DNA of 64,000 nt from contig CAVVHS010000003.1 in NCBI GenBank assembly GCA_963748215.1, positions 1-64,000 on the forward strand. Reading direction: 5' to 3'. Shown here in pieces: positions 2,323 to 9,887 of this stretch. The stretch comes from an uncultured Gammaproteobacteria bacterium (lineage in GTDB: Bacteria; Pseudomonadota; Gammaproteobacteria; UBA9214). The notes below the pieces were generated by a model. The model was given only the letters and a program-made list of their open reading frames with translations. It was not told the origin of the DNA and searched no databases. Numbering within the stretch: position 1 is the stretch's first letter; every line of letters starts with the position of its first letter. The translations under genes were made by a program, and so were the position numbers.

Positions 2323-2397
2323 CTCTGCGTCCTCTGCGTCTCTCGGTAACTGCTCCATGCGTTACTCTACCTCCTGCATCCCTGTAGTCGTGCGCGA
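2323..2397. repeat. CTCTGCGT short-repeat arm interrupted by a 48-bp mini-element (2344-2391)
   Basis: CTCTGCGT-CCTCTGCGT-CTCT[48 bp]GCGCGA. The 48-bp insert is 44/48 identical to 9832-9879. Confidence 0.7.
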
Positions 2398-5248: not shown

Positions 5249-6106
5249 ATGAAAGGCCGGTTGCGAGACTACATATCCCTGATGCGGCTCGACAAGCCGA
5301 TCGGTATCTTCCTGCTGCTGTGGCCGGCGCTGTGGGCGCTGCTGGTCGCGGCACAGGGCCGGCCCGACACCCTGATCGTGGTGGTGTTCGTACTGGGTGT
5401 GGTGCTGATGCGCTCGGCCGGCTGCGTGATCAATGATTACGCCGACCGTGACTACGACCGCTACGTCTCGCGCACCAGTGACCGCCCGCTGACGTCGGGA
5501 CGCATCTCGCCGCGCGCAGCGCTGGTGCTGTTCGCGGTGCTCTGCCTGCTGGCTCTTGGCCTGGTGCTGCTGCTCAACACCCTGACCCTCGTGCTGTCGG
5601 TGGGCGGCGTACTGCTGGCAGTCATCTATCCCTTCATGAAACGCGTGACGCACCTGCCGCAGGTTGTGCTGGGTGCCGCCTTTGGCTGGGCCGTACCCAT
5701 GGCCTTCGCCGCGCAGACCGGCACGGTACCGCAGCTGGGCTGGCTGATGTTCACGGCCACGGTGCTGTGGGCGACGGTCTACGACACCATGTATGCCATG
5801 GTCGACCGCCAGGACGATATCGCGCTGGGTCTCAAGTCCACCGCCATCCTGTTCGGCGAGGCCGACCGCATGATCATCGGTATCCTGCAGGTCATGGTGC
5901 TGGTATGCCTGGTCATGATCGGCTTCCAGGCCAAGCTGGGCCTGATCTACTACACCGGGGTCGCGGTTGGCGGTGCGCTGTTCGTCTACCAGCAGCGCCT
6001 CATACGTTTCCGCGAGCGCGACGACTGTTTCCGTGCCTTCCTGAACAACAACTGGTTCGGTATGGCCGTGTTTCTCGGCATCCTGCTCGAGTACGTGGCC
6101 ACCTGA
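5249..6106 (+). CDS. ubiA: 4-hydroxybenzoate octaprenyltransferase
   Basis: [47 protein letters not shown]. Confidence 0.95.
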
Positions 6107-6145
6107 CCGGCTAGCCCGCCTTTCTCACCGGGATCCCGGAAGCTG

Positions 6146-6316
6146 GGGCAGGGCTCGTGTGACCGGACGCCGCTCTGGAATGAAAGTGGTAGCTGAGCTA
6201 CCACTTGAATGAAGAGGTCGCTCTCGACTTCCTGTCTCCCGCGACACTTGAACGTCCCTGTACATCGCAAGTACGGGTGCACGAGAACCAGCCAGGGCCG
6301 GGATAGGCGCCACCCG
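6146..6316 (-). ncRNA. Putative structured ncRNA resembling an IS110-family left-end (bridge-type) RNA
   Basis: The minus strand folds by eye into a closing stem plus two stem-internal loop-hairpin domains. It lies downstream of a TTGACA box. The resemblance to IS110 non-coding ends is from recall and was not searched. Confidence 0.45.
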
Positions 6317-6350
6317 ATAACACATTGCTTGTTGCTGAATGGGCATCACT

Positions 6351-6380
6351 TTCATAATTTGTATTCATTTTGCCTGTCAA
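6351..6380 (-). promoter_or_regulatory. Putative sigma70 promoter reading into the 6146-6316 RNA
   Basis: Minus strand TTGACA (6380-6375), 18-nt AT-rich spacer, then TATGAA. The -35 is perfect and the -10 is weak. Confidence 0.4.
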
Positions 6381-6404
6381 TAGCCGCGCGGTGAGAAAGG
6401 CGGG

Positions 6405-7103
6405 CTAGTGCGCGGCACGCGCGATCACCCACACCTCCACCCGCTCCGCCCCGGCCTGTTTCAACGCCCGGGCCAGTTCGCCGGCCGTGTGGCCGGTGGT
6501 CATGACGTCATCGACGATGGCGACGTGCGCGGCCGGCGTGCCCTGGATGGCGAAGGCGTTGCGCAGGTTGAGGCGGCGTGCCGTGGGGCTGAGCAGCGAT
6601 TGCGGTTGCGTCGCACGCCGGCGCACGCACAGCCGTTGCGCCACCGGGAGCGCGAGTCGGGCGCCGAGTCGTGTGGCCAGCAGCCCGGCCTGGTTGTAAC
6701 CGCGTTCGCACAAACGGGTGCGGTGCAGCGGTATAGCCAGCAGCGCTTCCGGCAACGGTTCCGTGCGGGACGCGATGCGTTCGGCCAGCAGTCCGGCCAG
6801 TAGCGGGGCGATGGCCAGCTCGCTGGCAAACTTCAGTCGTTTCAACAGGTAATCGACCGGCGGCCGGTAGTGAAACAGTGCCGTGGTGGCGTCGAAGGCG
6901 GGTGGCTTGCGCTGGCAGCGCCCGCAGCGGGCAGCCGTCATTCCGGGGTGCGCGCATTGCAGGCAACCGGCGGTATGCCAGGGCAGTTCCCGTTCGCAGG
7001 CCCTGCAGAGCCGAAAGGCCGCCGTGGCCGGATCGCCGCACAGCCGGCAGCGTGGCGGAAAGATCAGGGTTTGCAGCCGGGCAGTCCAGTGGTAAACCGT
7101 CAT
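6405..7103 (-). CDS. comF: ComF/GntX-family phosphoribosyltransferase with Zn ribbon
   Basis: CRLC, CRAC, CLQC and CGRC Zn motifs, RGYNQ, IVDDVMTTG; divergent from bioB. Confidence 0.88.
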   Translation of the reverse strand: MTVYHWTARLQTLIFPPRCRLCGDPATAAFRLCRACERELPWHTAGCLQCAHPGMTAARCGRCQRKPPAFDATTALFHYRPPVDYLLKRLKFASELAIAPLLAGLLAERIASRTEPLPEALLAIPLHRTRLCERGYNQAGLLATRLGARLALPVAQRLCVRRRATQPQSLLSPTARRLNLRNAFAIQGTPAAHVAIVDDVMTTGHTAGELARALKQAGAERVEVWVIARAAH

Positions 7104-7144
7104 GGCGTTTTCCGGTTGACAGGACGTCGAATCGGTTCCATAGT
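7091..7144 (+). promoter_or_regulatory. BirA-type biotin operator overlapping the bioB promoter
   Basis: GGTAAACC-N15-GGTTGACA (7091-7121) matches the TGTAAACC-N14/16-GGTTKACA BirA site. Overlapping TTGACA-17-CATAGT (7116-7144). Confidence 0.75.
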
Positions 7145-7179
7145 CGAGCCCCTTGTTTGTCTGCATCATGTTGAAATAT

Positions 7180-8160
7180 ATGAATAAGCCATCTATCTGT
7201 CTGTCGGAGAAATCCGCTTTCGCTGTCCGCAACGACTGGTCGCGCGCCGAGGTGCGCGCGTTGTTCGAGCTGCCGTTCAACGCGTTGCTGTTCCAGGCCC
7301 ACAGCGCCCATCGCGCGCATTTCGATCCCAACGCGGTTCAGGTCAGCACGCTGCTGAGCATCAAGACCGGCGGCTGTCCGGAGGATTGCAGCTACTGCCC
7401 GCAGAGCGTGCACCACGACACCGGCCTGGAGGCCGAGCGCCTCATGGACATCGAGGCAGTGGTGACGGCGGCACGGCGCGCGAAGGCGGCCGGTGCCACG
7501 CGCTTCTGCATGGGTGCGGCGTGGCGCAACCCGAAGGGCAGGAACTTCGAGCGCGTACTGGAGATGGTCGGGCGCGTGCGCGCCGAGGGTCTGGAGACCT
7601 GCGCGACACTGGGCATGCTGGACGAGGAACAGGCCGGCGCGCTGAAGCACGCCGGGCTGGACTACTACAACCACAATCTCGACACCTCGCCGGAGTTCTA
7701 CGGCGAGATCATCACCACCCGTACTTACGATGACCGGCTCGACACCCTGGCACATGTGCGCGAGGCGGGCATCAATGTCTGTTGCGGCGGTATCGTCGGG
7801 CTGGGCGAGGGGCGCGAGGACCGCGTGTCGATGCTGTGCGAACTGGCCAACCTGCCCGAGCATCCGGGCAGCGTGCCGATCAACCGGCTGGTGAAAGTTG
7901 AAGGCACACCACTGGATGAACAACCCGATATCGAGCCGCTGGAATTCGTGCGTACCCTCGCGGTGGCGCGCATCCTGATGCCGGCCTCGTACGTACGGCT
8001 GTCGGCGGGGCGCACGGACATGAGCGACGAGTTGCAGGCGCTGTGTTTCTTCGCCGGTGCCAACTCGATTTTCTACGGCGAGAAGCTGCTCACCACCGGC
8101 AACCCGGACACCGCCCGGGACGACGCCTTGTTCGCGAAACTGGGTCTGCAACCGGCGTAG
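7180..8160 (+). CDS. bioB: Biotin synthase
   Basis: Radical SAM motif [39 protein letters not shown]. Confidence 0.97.
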
Positions 8161-9522: not shown

Positions 9523-9887
9523 GACCAAAGACTATGTCGCGCCAAGACGCAAAGGCGCAGGGAAAATCGAAAATACTTGCCACAGAGCACACGTGGAACA
9601 CAGAGATTAATGACTTTCCTGCGGTATGGGTGGCACCTGCAGGAGCGGACCGCATCCGCGATTTTATCTTAATGATCGCGCTTGCGAAGCGCTCCTACAC
9701 GACTAACACATGTGTTGGGTAAACGTTTAATGAAAAAGCTTTTGTTCGACAAACCACAGATGAAATTTTGTTCTTTGCGCCTTTGCGTCTTTGCGCGAGT
9801 ATTGTTTTTCTCTGTGTCTTCGGCGCCCTCTCGGCAACTGCTCCATGCGTTGCTCTACCTCCTACCTCCCTGTAGTCGTGTGGCGAA
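9487..9887. repeat. Nested inverted-repeat cluster with central REP doublet
   Basis: Outer pair 9487-9518 vs 9808-9831+9880-9887 (26/32); inner pair 9537-9560 vs 9775-9798 (22/24); REP doublet 9639-9698; 48-bp insert 9832-9879. Confidence 0.75.

What the first reader, a model, noticed from the sequence alone, without database searches (positions are those of the whole stretch)
6111..6408. Orphan IS110-like (bridge-type) RNA with its own promoter, enclosed by perfect inverted repeats between ubiA and comF
Seen: perfect 20-bp IRs (6111-6130 / 6389-6408) whose outer 4 bp are CTAG, and no credible ORF inside. On the minus strand TTGACA(6380)-N18-TATGAA precedes ~170 nt that folds into a closing stem (GGGTGG / CTGCCC) and two domains. 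Domain 1 is CCTG..TTCTCGTG[CA CCCGTAC-loop-GTACAGGG ACGTTCAAGTGT]CGCGGGAGACAGG. Domain 2 is GCGACC[TCTTCATTC AAGTGGTAGC-TCA-GCTACCACTT TCATTCCAGAGCGGCGTCC]GGTCAC. Both are hairpin-capped asymmetric internal loops. The RNA segment CACTTTCAT (6188-6180) is complementary to ATGAAAGTG next to its own promoter (6355-6347). Established: IS110-family elements encode a non-coding RNA with two internal guide loops that pair with target and donor DNA, expressed from a junction promoter. Inference: the sequence recalls proteobacterial IS110 left non-coding ends (from memory, unverified), yet no DEDD recombinase is in the window. It could be a stand-alone or MITE-borne guide RNA acting in trans, or a domesticated sRNA. 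If CTAG is a target duplication, the empty site is ubiA-TGA-CCGG-CTAG-comF with 16-bp TIRs. Alternatively, an IS110 relic inserted into a pre-existing terminator hairpin.
Basis: partly seen in the sequence, partly recalled or inferred. Interest (0 to 1): 0.8.

Follow-up and report, generated by a model that had tools for sequence, protein, structure and literature searches.

The report
Miniature transposon with conserved RNA hairpin
The stretch is a small non-autonomous transposon of the IS1380 family, one of about 35 copies in this genome, that carries a widely conserved hairpin-forming module of unknown role; it is not an IS110-type guide RNA.

Summary
The 20-bp perfect inverted repeats are real. 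The element is a MITE, not an orphan IS110 bridge RNA. The genome holds 35 paired copies of 42-685 bp with the same ends. A sister genome has the empty ubiA-comF site with a single CTAG. Full-length insertion sequences with the same ends and CTAG/TTAG duplications encode IS1380-family transposases.

The interior is a mosaic:
- a 120-nt module that folds into one rod-like hairpin
- a nested 51-nt REP-like unit

The rod shows strong covariation: 24 of 42 pairs change on both sides, and 0 of 500 shuffles reach this. It is favoured on the window's + strand, with 82 G-U against 8 A-C cells. A covariance model finds it in 25 of 54 genomes of the family and in 12 of 150 other gammaproteobacterial families.

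There is no similarity to this genome's two IS110 loci. The module's function is unknown. I infer a cis-acting RNA role. Evidence for transcription is weak.

The parts
5249..6106 (+). ubiA (context). Its stop codon TGA is at 6104-6106, 4 bp before the insertion site.
   Evidence: ORF. PF01040 UbiA, E 1.2e-71.
6111..6114 (.). Left copy of the duplicated target, CTAG.
   Evidence: The empty site in G045 has one CTAG between the same flanks. 23 of 35 copies in this genome have CTAG on both sides.
6115..6130 (.). 16-bp terminal inverted repeat at the module-side end. I tentatively call it the IRR.
   Evidence: Perfect complement of 6389-6404. Differs from the genome consensus end at one base, and that base is changed in both arms. 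The same ends occur on IS1380-family elements.
6133..6304 (+). Rod-like hairpin module, 120 nt in its basic form, here split by the nested unit. Helices:
- P1: 6133-6139 with 6298-6304
- P2: 6143-6147 with 6291-6295
- P3: 6154-6161 with 6278-6285
- P4: 6163-6168 with 6271-6276
- P5: 6172-6176 with 6213-6217
- P6: 6184-6193 with 6197-6206
   Evidence: 30 distinct copies aligned. 95.2% of cells are paired, 24 of 42 pairs change on both sides, 0 of 500 shuffles reach this, and slid controls give at most 7 such pairs. G-U 82 against A-C 8 cells. The + strand is more stable in 30 of 30 copies. Window coordinates were mapped by me.
6217..6267 (+). Nested 51-nt hairpin repeat (unit B), inserted in the 3' strand of P5. 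Its borders are ambiguous by 1 nt.
   Evidence: Absent from the 248-bp copies and from the orthologous G044 copy. Occurs alone in many genomes of the genus. In this genome there are 6 matches outside and 14 inside MITEs.
6305..6388 (.). AT-rich, fast-evolving core of the minimal 128-bp element.
   Evidence: Anatomy. Mean pairwise identity is 69.2% for the core against 87.4% for the module over 105 pairs. The promoter scan finds 0 sites.
6389..6404 (.). 16-bp terminal inverted repeat at the core-side end. I tentatively call it the IRL.
6405..6408 (.). Right copy of the duplicated CTAG. Positions 6405-6407 are the TAG stop codon of the comF-like gene on the minus strand.
   Evidence: ORF 6405-7331 on the minus strand. 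Empty site. At 32 of 70 element ends in this genome, an open frame of at least 100 codons stops in the flanking TAG.
6405..7331 (-). comF-like gene (context). Its start codon is uncertain.
   Evidence: PF18912 DZR_2, E 2.3e-10. PF00156, E 6.7e-6, is just under its cut-off.

Best explanation
Window 6115-6404 is one copy of a family of miniature inverted-repeat transposable elements (MITEs). Their 16-bp ends are those of IS1380-family insertion sequences.

How it got there. It was pasted into a CTAG that holds the TAG stop codon of the comF-like gene. The CTAG was duplicated (6111-6114 and 6405-6408), so comF kept its stop codon. The element encodes no transposase. It must be moved by an IS1380-family DDE transposase made elsewhere. 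None was found in this assembly, but intact ones with the same ends occur in the same bacterial family.

What is inside.
1. A 120-nt module next to one end folds into a single long rod of six helices with nearly invariant, non-complementary internal loops. It is conserved and covarying across many gammaproteobacterial families.
2. A 51-nt REP-like hairpin unit is nested in that rod.
3. An AT-rich, fast-evolving core holds the promoter-like hexamers.

It is not an IS110 bridge RNA.

Shown: MITE identity, target site, parent IS family, and the structure and its strand.

Inferred:
- The rod works as RNA (about 0.6).
- It acts in cis in transcripts that read into the element from the module side, here the ubiA 3' untranslated region. 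It would serve as a stable 3' structure or insulator between the convergent genes, or as a protein-binding site (about 0.3).
For: Copies. This genome has 35 paired copies of 42-685 bp with ends within 3 mismatches of the 17-mer consensus. 23 of the 35 are flanked by CTAG on both sides.

Empty site. G045 is about 97% identical in the flanks and reads ...TGACCGG-CTAG-TGCGCGG.

Orthologous copy. G044 holds the orthologous copy at the same CTAG. It has the same rare end variant and 233 of 247 aligned positions identical. It is inverted and lacks the 51-nt unit.

Parent IS.
- Elements of 1.6-1.75 kb with the same ends and CTAG/CTAG or TTAG/TTAG flanks encode PF13701 (E 6e-162) / NF033539 IS1380-family transposases.
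- In the window's own family, G059:C224 holds a 1744-bp IS with these ends and CTAG flanks.
- G024 holds an intact 485-aa transposase.

Module.
- 42 pairs, 95.2% of cells paired, 24 pairs with changes on both sides, 0 of 500 shuffles as high, and at most 7 such pairs when partners are slid.
- G-U 82 against A-C 8 of 1260 cells, and 24 against 4 in ten copies from outside the training alignment (nine from other genera of the family).
- Mean MFE is -71.0 on the + strand against -58.3 kcal/mol on the minus strand. The + strand is more stable in 30 of 30 copies.
- Module identity is 87.4% against 69.2% for the core. The module is higher in 105 of 105 pairs.
- The covariance model hits 25 of 54 genomes of the family (5 of 6 genera) and 12 of 150 genomes of other families.
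- In every copy I inspected from other genera and families, the module sits inside the same kind of inverted repeats.

Against IS110. The two PF01548 loci are elsewhere. Blastn of the element against them gives a best E of 0.068 over 21 nt, and nhmmer gives nothing.
Against: - No IS1380-family transposase was found in this genome (assembly 95% complete, 9 contigs). No match over the family cut-off was found in G044 or G045 either. Mobilisation in trans is therefore inferred from shared ends only.
- The MITE interior is not a deletion derivative of the family's IS. The 210-nt non-coding end of the G059 IS has no module.
- Several copies have unequal flanks, such as TTAG...CTAG and CTAG...CTAC. 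These fit a 2-bp TA duplication as well as a 4-bp one.
- For an RNA role, the only expression data are metatranscriptome contigs of relatives, without strand, and DNA carry-over is not excluded.
- No + strand promoter is evident upstream of the module, and no terminator-like site was found.
- Module orientation shows no bias toward flanking genes: the module-side gene reads into the element in 14 of 23 copies, by crude gene calls. This argues against host-level selection for a 3'-UTR role.
- Compensatory change in quasi-palindromes can arise at the DNA level by template switching (recalled). Only the G-U/A-C asymmetry speaks against that.
- Copies are related, so cell counts overstate the number of independent events.
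Confidence: 0.8

Rival explanations
1. A stand-alone or MITE-borne IS110-type bridge (guide) RNA is transcribed from the minus-strand TTGACA-N18-TATGAA promoter. Two internal loops pair with target and donor DNA for a DEDD recombinase acting in trans.
For: The genome does encode two PF01548 (DEDD_Tnp_IS110) proteins. The hexamers exist. In the single window sequence the proposed stems can form: 88.6% of cells are paired on 9 copies.
Against: - The ends, duplication and parent elements are IS1380-family.
- No copy of the element adjoins an IS110 gene. The nearest is 3.6 kb away on contig C4.
- There is no sequence similarity to the IS110 loci.
- The two-domain fold shows no covariation (2 of 41 pairs; 225 of 500 shuffles reach this).
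- Domain 1 depends on a 51-nt insert that most copies and the G044 orthologue lack.
- The favoured strand is the opposite one.
- Rfam gave nothing, but it also gave nothing at the genome's own IS110 loci. It is therefore no test.
Confidence: 0.03
2. The rod module is a trans-acting non-coding RNA. It could be a protein-binding or regulatory small RNA, or an RNA partner of the IS1380-type transposase. It would be made from many MITE copies rather than acting as a cis element of neighbouring mRNAs.
For: - Internal-loop letters are nearly invariant and non-complementary while the helices covary.
- The module is more conserved than the rest of the element in 105 of 105 pairs.
- Distribution across families is patchy, always inside these MITEs.
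- There is no orientation bias toward host genes, so selection looks intrinsic to the element.
- Short RNA-library contigs cover the module more than the core.
Against: - No promoter for the + strand is visible inside the element.
- Minimal 128-bp copies without the module are about as numerous: 12 of the 35 paired copies are 125-129 bp. The module is therefore not needed for spread.
- The family's full-length IS lacks it.
- Expression and strand are unknown.
Confidence: 0.2
3. The rod matters only as DNA. Either it is a single-stranded DNA hairpin used during replication or transposition of the element, or it has no function and is a quasi-palindrome kept paired by template-switch correction.
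For: - Every helix can form on both strands. The whole element is palindrome-like.
- Other size classes with the same ends in other phyla are also long imperfect palindromes.
- Precise loss of the module between the 7-bp direct repeats that flank it would explain 128-bp and 248-bp copies sharing core subtypes.
Against: - The tenfold excess of G-U over A-C cells is not expected for duplex DNA or for cruciforms.
- It also holds outside the four wobble-rich P3 pairs, where I count 30 against 7 from the per-pair table.
- The invariant non-complementary loops would be erased by template-switch correction.
Confidence: 0.15
4. The functional product is the minus-strand transcript from the promoter-like site. 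It would be a MITE-borne outward or inward promoter that drives antisense RNA across the ubiA 3' end.
For: A perfect TTGACA lies 18 nt from TATGAA. A TTGAnA motif sits at a similar offset from the transposase-side end in full-length elements L060 and L117.
Against: - The scan tool rejects the site.
- The core is the least conserved part, and many copies lack the -35-like hexamer.
- The minus strand folds worse in 30 of 30 copies.
- RNA-library contigs give little depth over 6325-6399 (weak evidence).
Confidence: 0.07

Closest known systems
Bacterial MITEs that fold as RNA hairpins (Correia/NEMIS, ERIC, BOX, RUP).
   Same: - Short, multi-copy and non-coding.
- Terminal inverted repeats and a target duplication.
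- Lies in intergenic 3' regions.
- Interior predicted to form stable hairpins when co-transcribed.
- Modular, mosaic size variants.
   Different: - The ends match IS1380-family elements.
- The target is CTAG/YTAG, often a stop codon.
- The hairpin module is far more conserved than the rest of the element, covaries, and is strand-specific.
- It is shared by at least 13 gammaproteobacterial families.
IS1380-family insertion sequences, for example IS1247 (1672 bp, IR 16/13, DR 5 bp; PMC3281130 Table 2, passage seen)
   Same: - Same 16-bp ends starting with CC.
- Short target duplication.
- Full-length relatives of 1.65-1.75 kb with one PF13701/NF033539 transposase.
   Different: - The window element has no transposase.
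- Its interior is unrelated to the IS interior.
- The duplication appears to be 4 bp at a near-palindromic YTAG.
piggyBac transposons and their miniature derivatives. IS1380 transposases are used as the prokaryotic outgroup of piggyBac, and TTAA is the conserved piggyBac target (PMC10813416, passages seen).
   Same: Related transposase superfamily. 4-bp palindromic target with a central TA. One tandem pair in genome G063 is flanked by and shares TTAA.
   Different: Prokaryotic. The target is mostly CTAG. Precise excision was not shown. It is only one possible reading of the empty site in G045.
   Same: A structured non-coding sequence of about 170 nt inside a mobile element, with hairpins and internal loops.
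   Different: - No adjacent DEDD recombinase.
- DDE-type inverted repeats and a target duplication.
- One rod instead of two guide-loop domains.
- No covariation for the proposed loops.
- No similarity to the IS110 ends of this genome.
REP/REPIN and BIME-type mosaic repeats (recalled)
   Same: The nested 51-nt unit B and units A, C and E are short hairpin repeats. They are dispersed through intergenic DNA, sometimes in tandem, and inserted into one another. The genome has 5 Y1_Tnp (PF01797) matches.
   Different: A link between these units and the Y1 transposases was not examined. The 120-nt rod itself was never found outside the MITE ends in this genome.

Membership tests
IS110 bridge RNA | Encoded in the non-coding end of an IS110-family element, next to a DEDD/Transposase_20 recombinase gene | tested here: not met
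   PF01548 matches lie only at C4:100876-101295 and C2:83814-84179. None of the 35 copies adjoins them. The nearest is C4:97131-97258, 3.6 kb away.
IS110 bridge RNA | Sequence or profile similarity to IS110 non-coding ends | tested here: not met
   Blastn of 6111-6408 against both IS110 loci gives a best E of 0.068 over 21 nt. nhmmer of the module gives nothing. A covariance-model test was not possible: Rfam 15 gave no hit at the element nor at the IS110 loci themselves.
IS110 bridge RNA | Two internal loops, each carrying guides for target and donor DNA | tested here: not met
The competing single rod has 24 of 42 such pairs and 0 of 500. Matching of loop sequences to targets was not searched.
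IS110 bridge RNA | Element without DDE-type terminal inverted repeats and target duplication (recalled property of IS110) | tested here: not met
   The element has 16-bp perfect inverted repeats and a duplicated CTAG.
MITE | Terminal inverted repeats | tested here: met
MITE | Target-site duplication, shown by an empty site | tested here: met
   The G045 junction has a single CTAG between identical flanks.
MITE | Many copies, small size, no transposase gene | tested here: met
   35 paired copies of 42-685 bp. No conserved open frame.
MITE | Ends shared with an autonomous element | tested here: met
   G059:C224 holds a 1744-bp IS whose two 20-mers each differ at 1 position from the MITE consensus. 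L060, L134 and L144 also share the ends.
MITE | Mobilised by that element's transposase | not testable with these tools
   Presence, absence and inversion among G000, G044 and G045 show recent change. They do not show which enzyme caused it.
IS1380 family (parent element) | Transposase matches the family models | tested here: met
   P0001 of L060 matches PF13701 at E 6.1e-162 and NF033539 at 389 bits against a cut-off of 180. The G024 copy matches PF13701 at E 5.5e-159.
IS1380 family (parent element) | About 1.7 kb, one ORF, short inverted repeats, 4-5-bp direct repeats | tested here: met
   Elements of 1647-1756 bp with CTAG or TTAG on both sides. For comparison, IS1247 is 1672 bp with a 5-bp DR (PMC3281130 Table 2). 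The range of 4-5 bp for the family is recalled.
REP/REPIN (for nested unit B only) | Short hairpin repeat dispersed in intergenic DNA | tested here: met
   19 of 24 sampled genomes of the genus had matches, most of them to query 106-157 alone. Stand-alone copies occur in this genome.
REP/REPIN (for nested unit B only) | Associated Y1 (RAYT) transposase flanked by the repeat | not tested
   5 PF01797 matches exist. Their flanks were not examined.

The most novel reading that the evidence does not exclude
The 120-nt rod is an undescribed functional RNA that travels on IS1380-type (piggyBac-related) MITEs through Gammaproteobacteria. Its invariant, non-complementary internal loops would be a binding site for a protein. 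The partner could be the transposase itself, making it an RNA cofactor or regulator of transposition, or a host RNA-binding protein that the element exploits.
Probability: 0.15. Interest if true: 0.75.

Novelty: new member of a known kind. Interest (0 to 1): 0.4.

Why it matters
- It removes a false lead. A hairpin-rich, promoter-bearing, ORF-free insert between perfect inverted repeats looked like an orphan bridge RNA, but it is a MITE. The same pattern will recur in scans of this clade.
- It documents a MITE family tied to IS1380 (the prokaryotic relatives of piggyBac) that targets CTAG. CTAG is about tenfold under-represented in this genome. As a result the elements often land on TAG stop codons and restore them through the duplication.
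- It brings out a strongly covarying, strand-specific 120-nt structure that is shared by many gammaproteobacterial families and matches no Rfam family. This is a concrete candidate for a transposon-borne RNA whose role can be tested.

Tried and rejected
IS630/Tc1 parent. I first suspected this because of the CTAG target with a possible TA duplication. PF13358 has 0 matches in the genome. Non-palindromic equal flanks favour 4 bp: TTAG/TTAG in L133 and L144, CTAT/CTAT in L236 and TTAC/TTAC in L257. Unequal flanks in some copies leave 2 bp possible.

Rfam. No family matched the element or 10 other copies. There was also none at the genome's IS110 loci, so Rfam says nothing about bridge RNAs.

Promoter as a relic of the transposase promoter. 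There is only a positional resemblance (a TTGAnA at a similar offset in L060 and L117). The family's own IS (G059, G042) reads differently there. I dropped this as evidence.

Module as a piece of the parent IS. It was not found in the 210-nt non-coding end of the G059 IS nor in L060, L062, L133, L134 or L144.

Coding potential. Several insert lengths (120, 51, 48 and 156 nt) are multiples of three, which made me check. Frames and start codons are not kept.

Orientation bias toward neighbouring genes. There is none (14 of 23). The gene calls were crude (long ORFs with high GC3). For the window itself they were wrong, and I used ubiA and comF instead. The "mod" column of that script printed "-" both for "minus" and for "none", so I assigned copies by size and core orientation.

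RNA evidence. One search gave 4 metatranscriptome runs with small word shares of 0.04-0.08. When laid, 17, 5, 11 and 1 contigs matched at 88% or more, mainly over 6101-6322, from relatives' copies. They carry no strand, and DNA carry-over is not excluded. The low depth over 6325-6399 is not a finding.

Other points.
- Junctions of G008, G002, G052, G007 and G046 were not printed because my anchor pattern did not match. For G008 and G002 I have only the abutting hit coordinates.
- Literature: "IS1380" with "MITE" gave 21 papers, of which 15 were listed. I saw the listing and passages of four, and none describes this element. "bridge RNA" with "IS110" and "Rfam" gave 2 preprints (listing only). 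Supplements were not opened.
- Structure prediction, complex prediction and the large protein searches were not used.
Full report
OBSERVATION. Positions 6111-6130 and 6389-6408 are perfect reverse complements whose outer four bases are CTAG. They sit between the stop codon of a UbiA-family gene (TGA at 6104-6106; PF01040, E 1e-71) and the stop codon of a ComF-like gene on the minus strand (6405-7331). That stop codon (6405-7407 would be wrong: it is 6405-6407) lies inside the right-hand CTAG. The consensus scan, however, lists no promoter-like and no terminator-like site in 5800-6700. The 298 nt fold about equally well on either strand (-125 and -128.3 kcal/mol, z about -5 each), largely because of the 20-bp terminal stem.

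IT IS A REPEAT FAMILY. The element matches about 70 places in its own genome (68 HSPs). A scan for the 17-base end with up to 3 mismatches gives 102 sites. Of these, 70 form 35 pairs no more than 800 bp apart. The sizes are 42, 125-136 (13 copies), 234-257 (8), 298, 299, 323-350 (3), 404-503 (5) and 650-685 (3). 23 of the 35 pairs have CTAG on both sides. The window copy is unusual only in having the same one-base variant in both arms.

INSERTION SITE.
- In 34 of 37 genomes of the genus the flanks are found.
- G045 is about 97% identical in the flanks. There the ubiA and comF parts join directly as ...TGACCGG-CTAG-TGCGCGG.
- G044 has an element at the same CTAG with the same rare end variant. 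It is 94.3% identical (233 of 247 aligned positions). It lies in the opposite orientation and lacks 51 nt.
- The three genomes therefore differ by presence or absence, by an inversion, and by gain or loss of the nested unit. The inversion could come from recombination between the perfect arms or from excision and re-insertion. An assembly error is unlikely but not excluded.
- CTAG is rare here: 1194 sites against 12,560 expected from base composition.
- At 32 of 70 element ends, an open frame of at least 100 codons stops in the flanking TAG. The figure for all CTAG site-sides is 494 of 2388. Landing on the comF stop codon is therefore typical of the family.

PARENT ELEMENT.
They are titled Acidobacteriota, Planctomycetota, Alpha-, Gamma- and Deltaproteobacteria, Verrucomicrobia, Nitrospira, Actinomycetota and others.
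- Most pairs there are 40-350 bp apart, in discrete size classes.
- Four pairs span 1.3-1.75 kb. They encode a protein that matches PF13701 (E 6e-162) and NCBIfam "IS1380 family transposase" (389 bits against a cut-off of 180), with CTAG/CTAG or TTAG/TTAG flanks.
- Within the window's own family, G059:C224 carries a complete 1744-bp copy with these ends and CTAG flanks. G024 has an intact 485-aa transposase.
- The window's genome has no match to this transposase or to PF13701. It has none to PF13358 either.
- IS1380 transposases are treated as the prokaryotic outgroup of piggyBac, whose target is TTAA (PMC10813416, passages seen). IS1247 of this family is 1672 bp with 16/13-bp repeats and a 5-bp duplication (PMC3281130 Table 2, seen).

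NOT IS110.
- The genome has two PF01548 genes. None of the 35 copies adjoins them.
- Blastn of the element against both loci gives nothing better than E 0.068, and nhmmer gives nothing.
- Rfam gives no hit at the element. It also gives none at the IS110 loci, so it is not a test.

ANATOMY.
- The minimal 128-bp element is the two ends plus an AT-rich core.
- The 248-bp form adds a 120-nt module right after one end.
- The window's 298 bp add a 51-nt unit (B) inside that module.
- Longer forms add further units: A of 46 nt, C of 48 nt, E, and a unit D of about 156-170 nt.
- Units A, B, C and E also occur outside the MITEs. The counts of matches outside versus inside are 51/10, 6/14, 22/7 and 4/5. 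Unit D (0/8) and the module occur only inside.
- Unit B alone is what most relatives of the genus matched. It lies beside other REP-like repeats. The genome has 5 Y1-transposase matches, whose flanks I did not examine.

THE MODULE IS A CONSERVED ROD.
- I aligned 30 distinct copies from this genome, eight other genomes of the genus and four MAGs. I dropped 2 of the 32 full-length matches because their 5' half is not homologous.
- On this alignment, a single hairpin of six helices (42 pairs) has 95.2% of cells paired and 24 pairs with changes on both sides. 0 of 500 shuffles reach this. Sliding the partners by 1-3 columns gives 27-41% pairing and at most 7 such pairs.
- I derived the structure from these same sequences, which inflates the paired percentage but not the double changes.
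- Non-Watson-Crick cells are strongly asymmetric: 82 G-U against 8 A-C on the window's + strand. In ten further copies, nine of them from other genera of the family, the counts are 24 against 4.
- Each of the 30 copies folds better as + strand RNA (mean -71.0 against -58.3 kcal/mol).
- The loop between P5 and P6 is non-complementary and nearly invariant.
- Across 15 elements the module is 87.4% identical on average and the core 69.2%. The module is higher in 105 of 105 pairs.
- A covariance model built from the alignment hits 25 of 54 genomes of the family (5 of 6 genera). It also hits 12 of 150 genomes drawn one per other family of the class. In the copies I inspected, the module again lies inside inverted repeats of this type.

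Only 2 of 41 pairs change on both sides, and 225 of 500 shuffles do as well. The outer stem of Domain 1 uses the sequence that forms covarying P3. It needs unit B, which the 248-bp copies and the G044 orthologue lack. Only the P6 hairpin and the hairpin at 6257-6277 are common to both folds.

FUNCTION.
- Shown: a non-autonomous IS1380-type element, its target, and a single-strand-specific conserved structure.
- Not shown: any transcript of defined strand.
- Four metatranscriptome runs hold contigs of relatives' copies, mostly over the module. This is weak evidence.
- Orientation relative to neighbouring genes is unbiased (14 of 23, crude calls).
- The 128-bp copies spread without the module, and the family's IS lacks it.
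- I therefore commit, with modest odds, to an RNA-level role in cis in transcripts that enter from the module side, here the ubiA 3' UTR. The rivals are a trans-acting or protein-binding RNA and a DNA-level hairpin.

VERDICT. The finding is an ordinary kind of thing, a MITE, and a new member of that kind. It carries an unusually well-conserved structured passenger that deserves an experiment. The IS110 reading is rejected.

CORRECTION. In the first paragraph the comF stop codon is at 6405-6407.

Noticed in passing
window 2342-2391 and 9830-9879: Two copies (88% identity) of the 50-nt hairpin repeat "unit C", which also occurs inside the longer MITEs. The genome has 22 such matches outside MITEs.
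   Followed up: no
whole genome G000: CTAG is about tenfold under-represented: 1194 sites against 12,560 expected from base composition. The flanks of the 35 paired elements (46 flanks in the 23 CTAG/CTAG pairs, plus single CTAG flanks in others) are a noticeable share of all CTAG sites.
   Followed up: partly
L054, L089, L093, L094, L107 and others (loci): A 183-186-bp size class with the same ends occurs in MAGs titled Thiohalobacter, Actinomycetota, Thermoanaerobaculales and Bryobacterales. Length is equal and identity is 69-80% across phyla. The interior is a different long imperfect palindrome. This points to cross-phylum spread of the element. Bin contamination is not excluded.
   Followed up: partly
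L227 (G063:C16:147329-147706): Two 248-bp-type copies lie in tandem and share a TTAA between them. The pair is flanked by TTAA. TTAA is the piggyBac target.
   Followed up: no
L172 (G024:C19) around 1340-1400: In the intact IS1380-family copy of G024, the terminal repeat on the transposase-start side is missing. The sequence joined there looks by eye like the 5' part of a tRNA gene. This was not tested with a tRNA finder. The contig ends 115 bp after the transposase gene.
   Followed up: no
L210-L212, L214 (G000 C8:281335-281984, C9:19884-20562, C6:221316-222000, C9:2295-2617): The 46-nt unit A is found inserted at the same short motif (between GGA and TGC), both in the rod module and inside unit C. 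It may be a small site-specific insertion unit. It has 51 matches outside MITEs.
   Followed up: partly
G000 C9:23960-24110, C3:88530-88680, C5:94670-94810: Stand-alone B units lie next to another REP-like inverted repeat. The genome has 5 Y1_Tnp (PF01797) matches. These could be the mobilising RAYT-type genes. Their flanks were not checked.
   Followed up: no
G000 C4:95320-95776, C4:97131-97258 and C4:100876-101295: Two MITE copies lie 3.6-5 kb from one of the two IS110-family genes. They are near it but not adjacent, and there is no shared sequence.
   Followed up: yes
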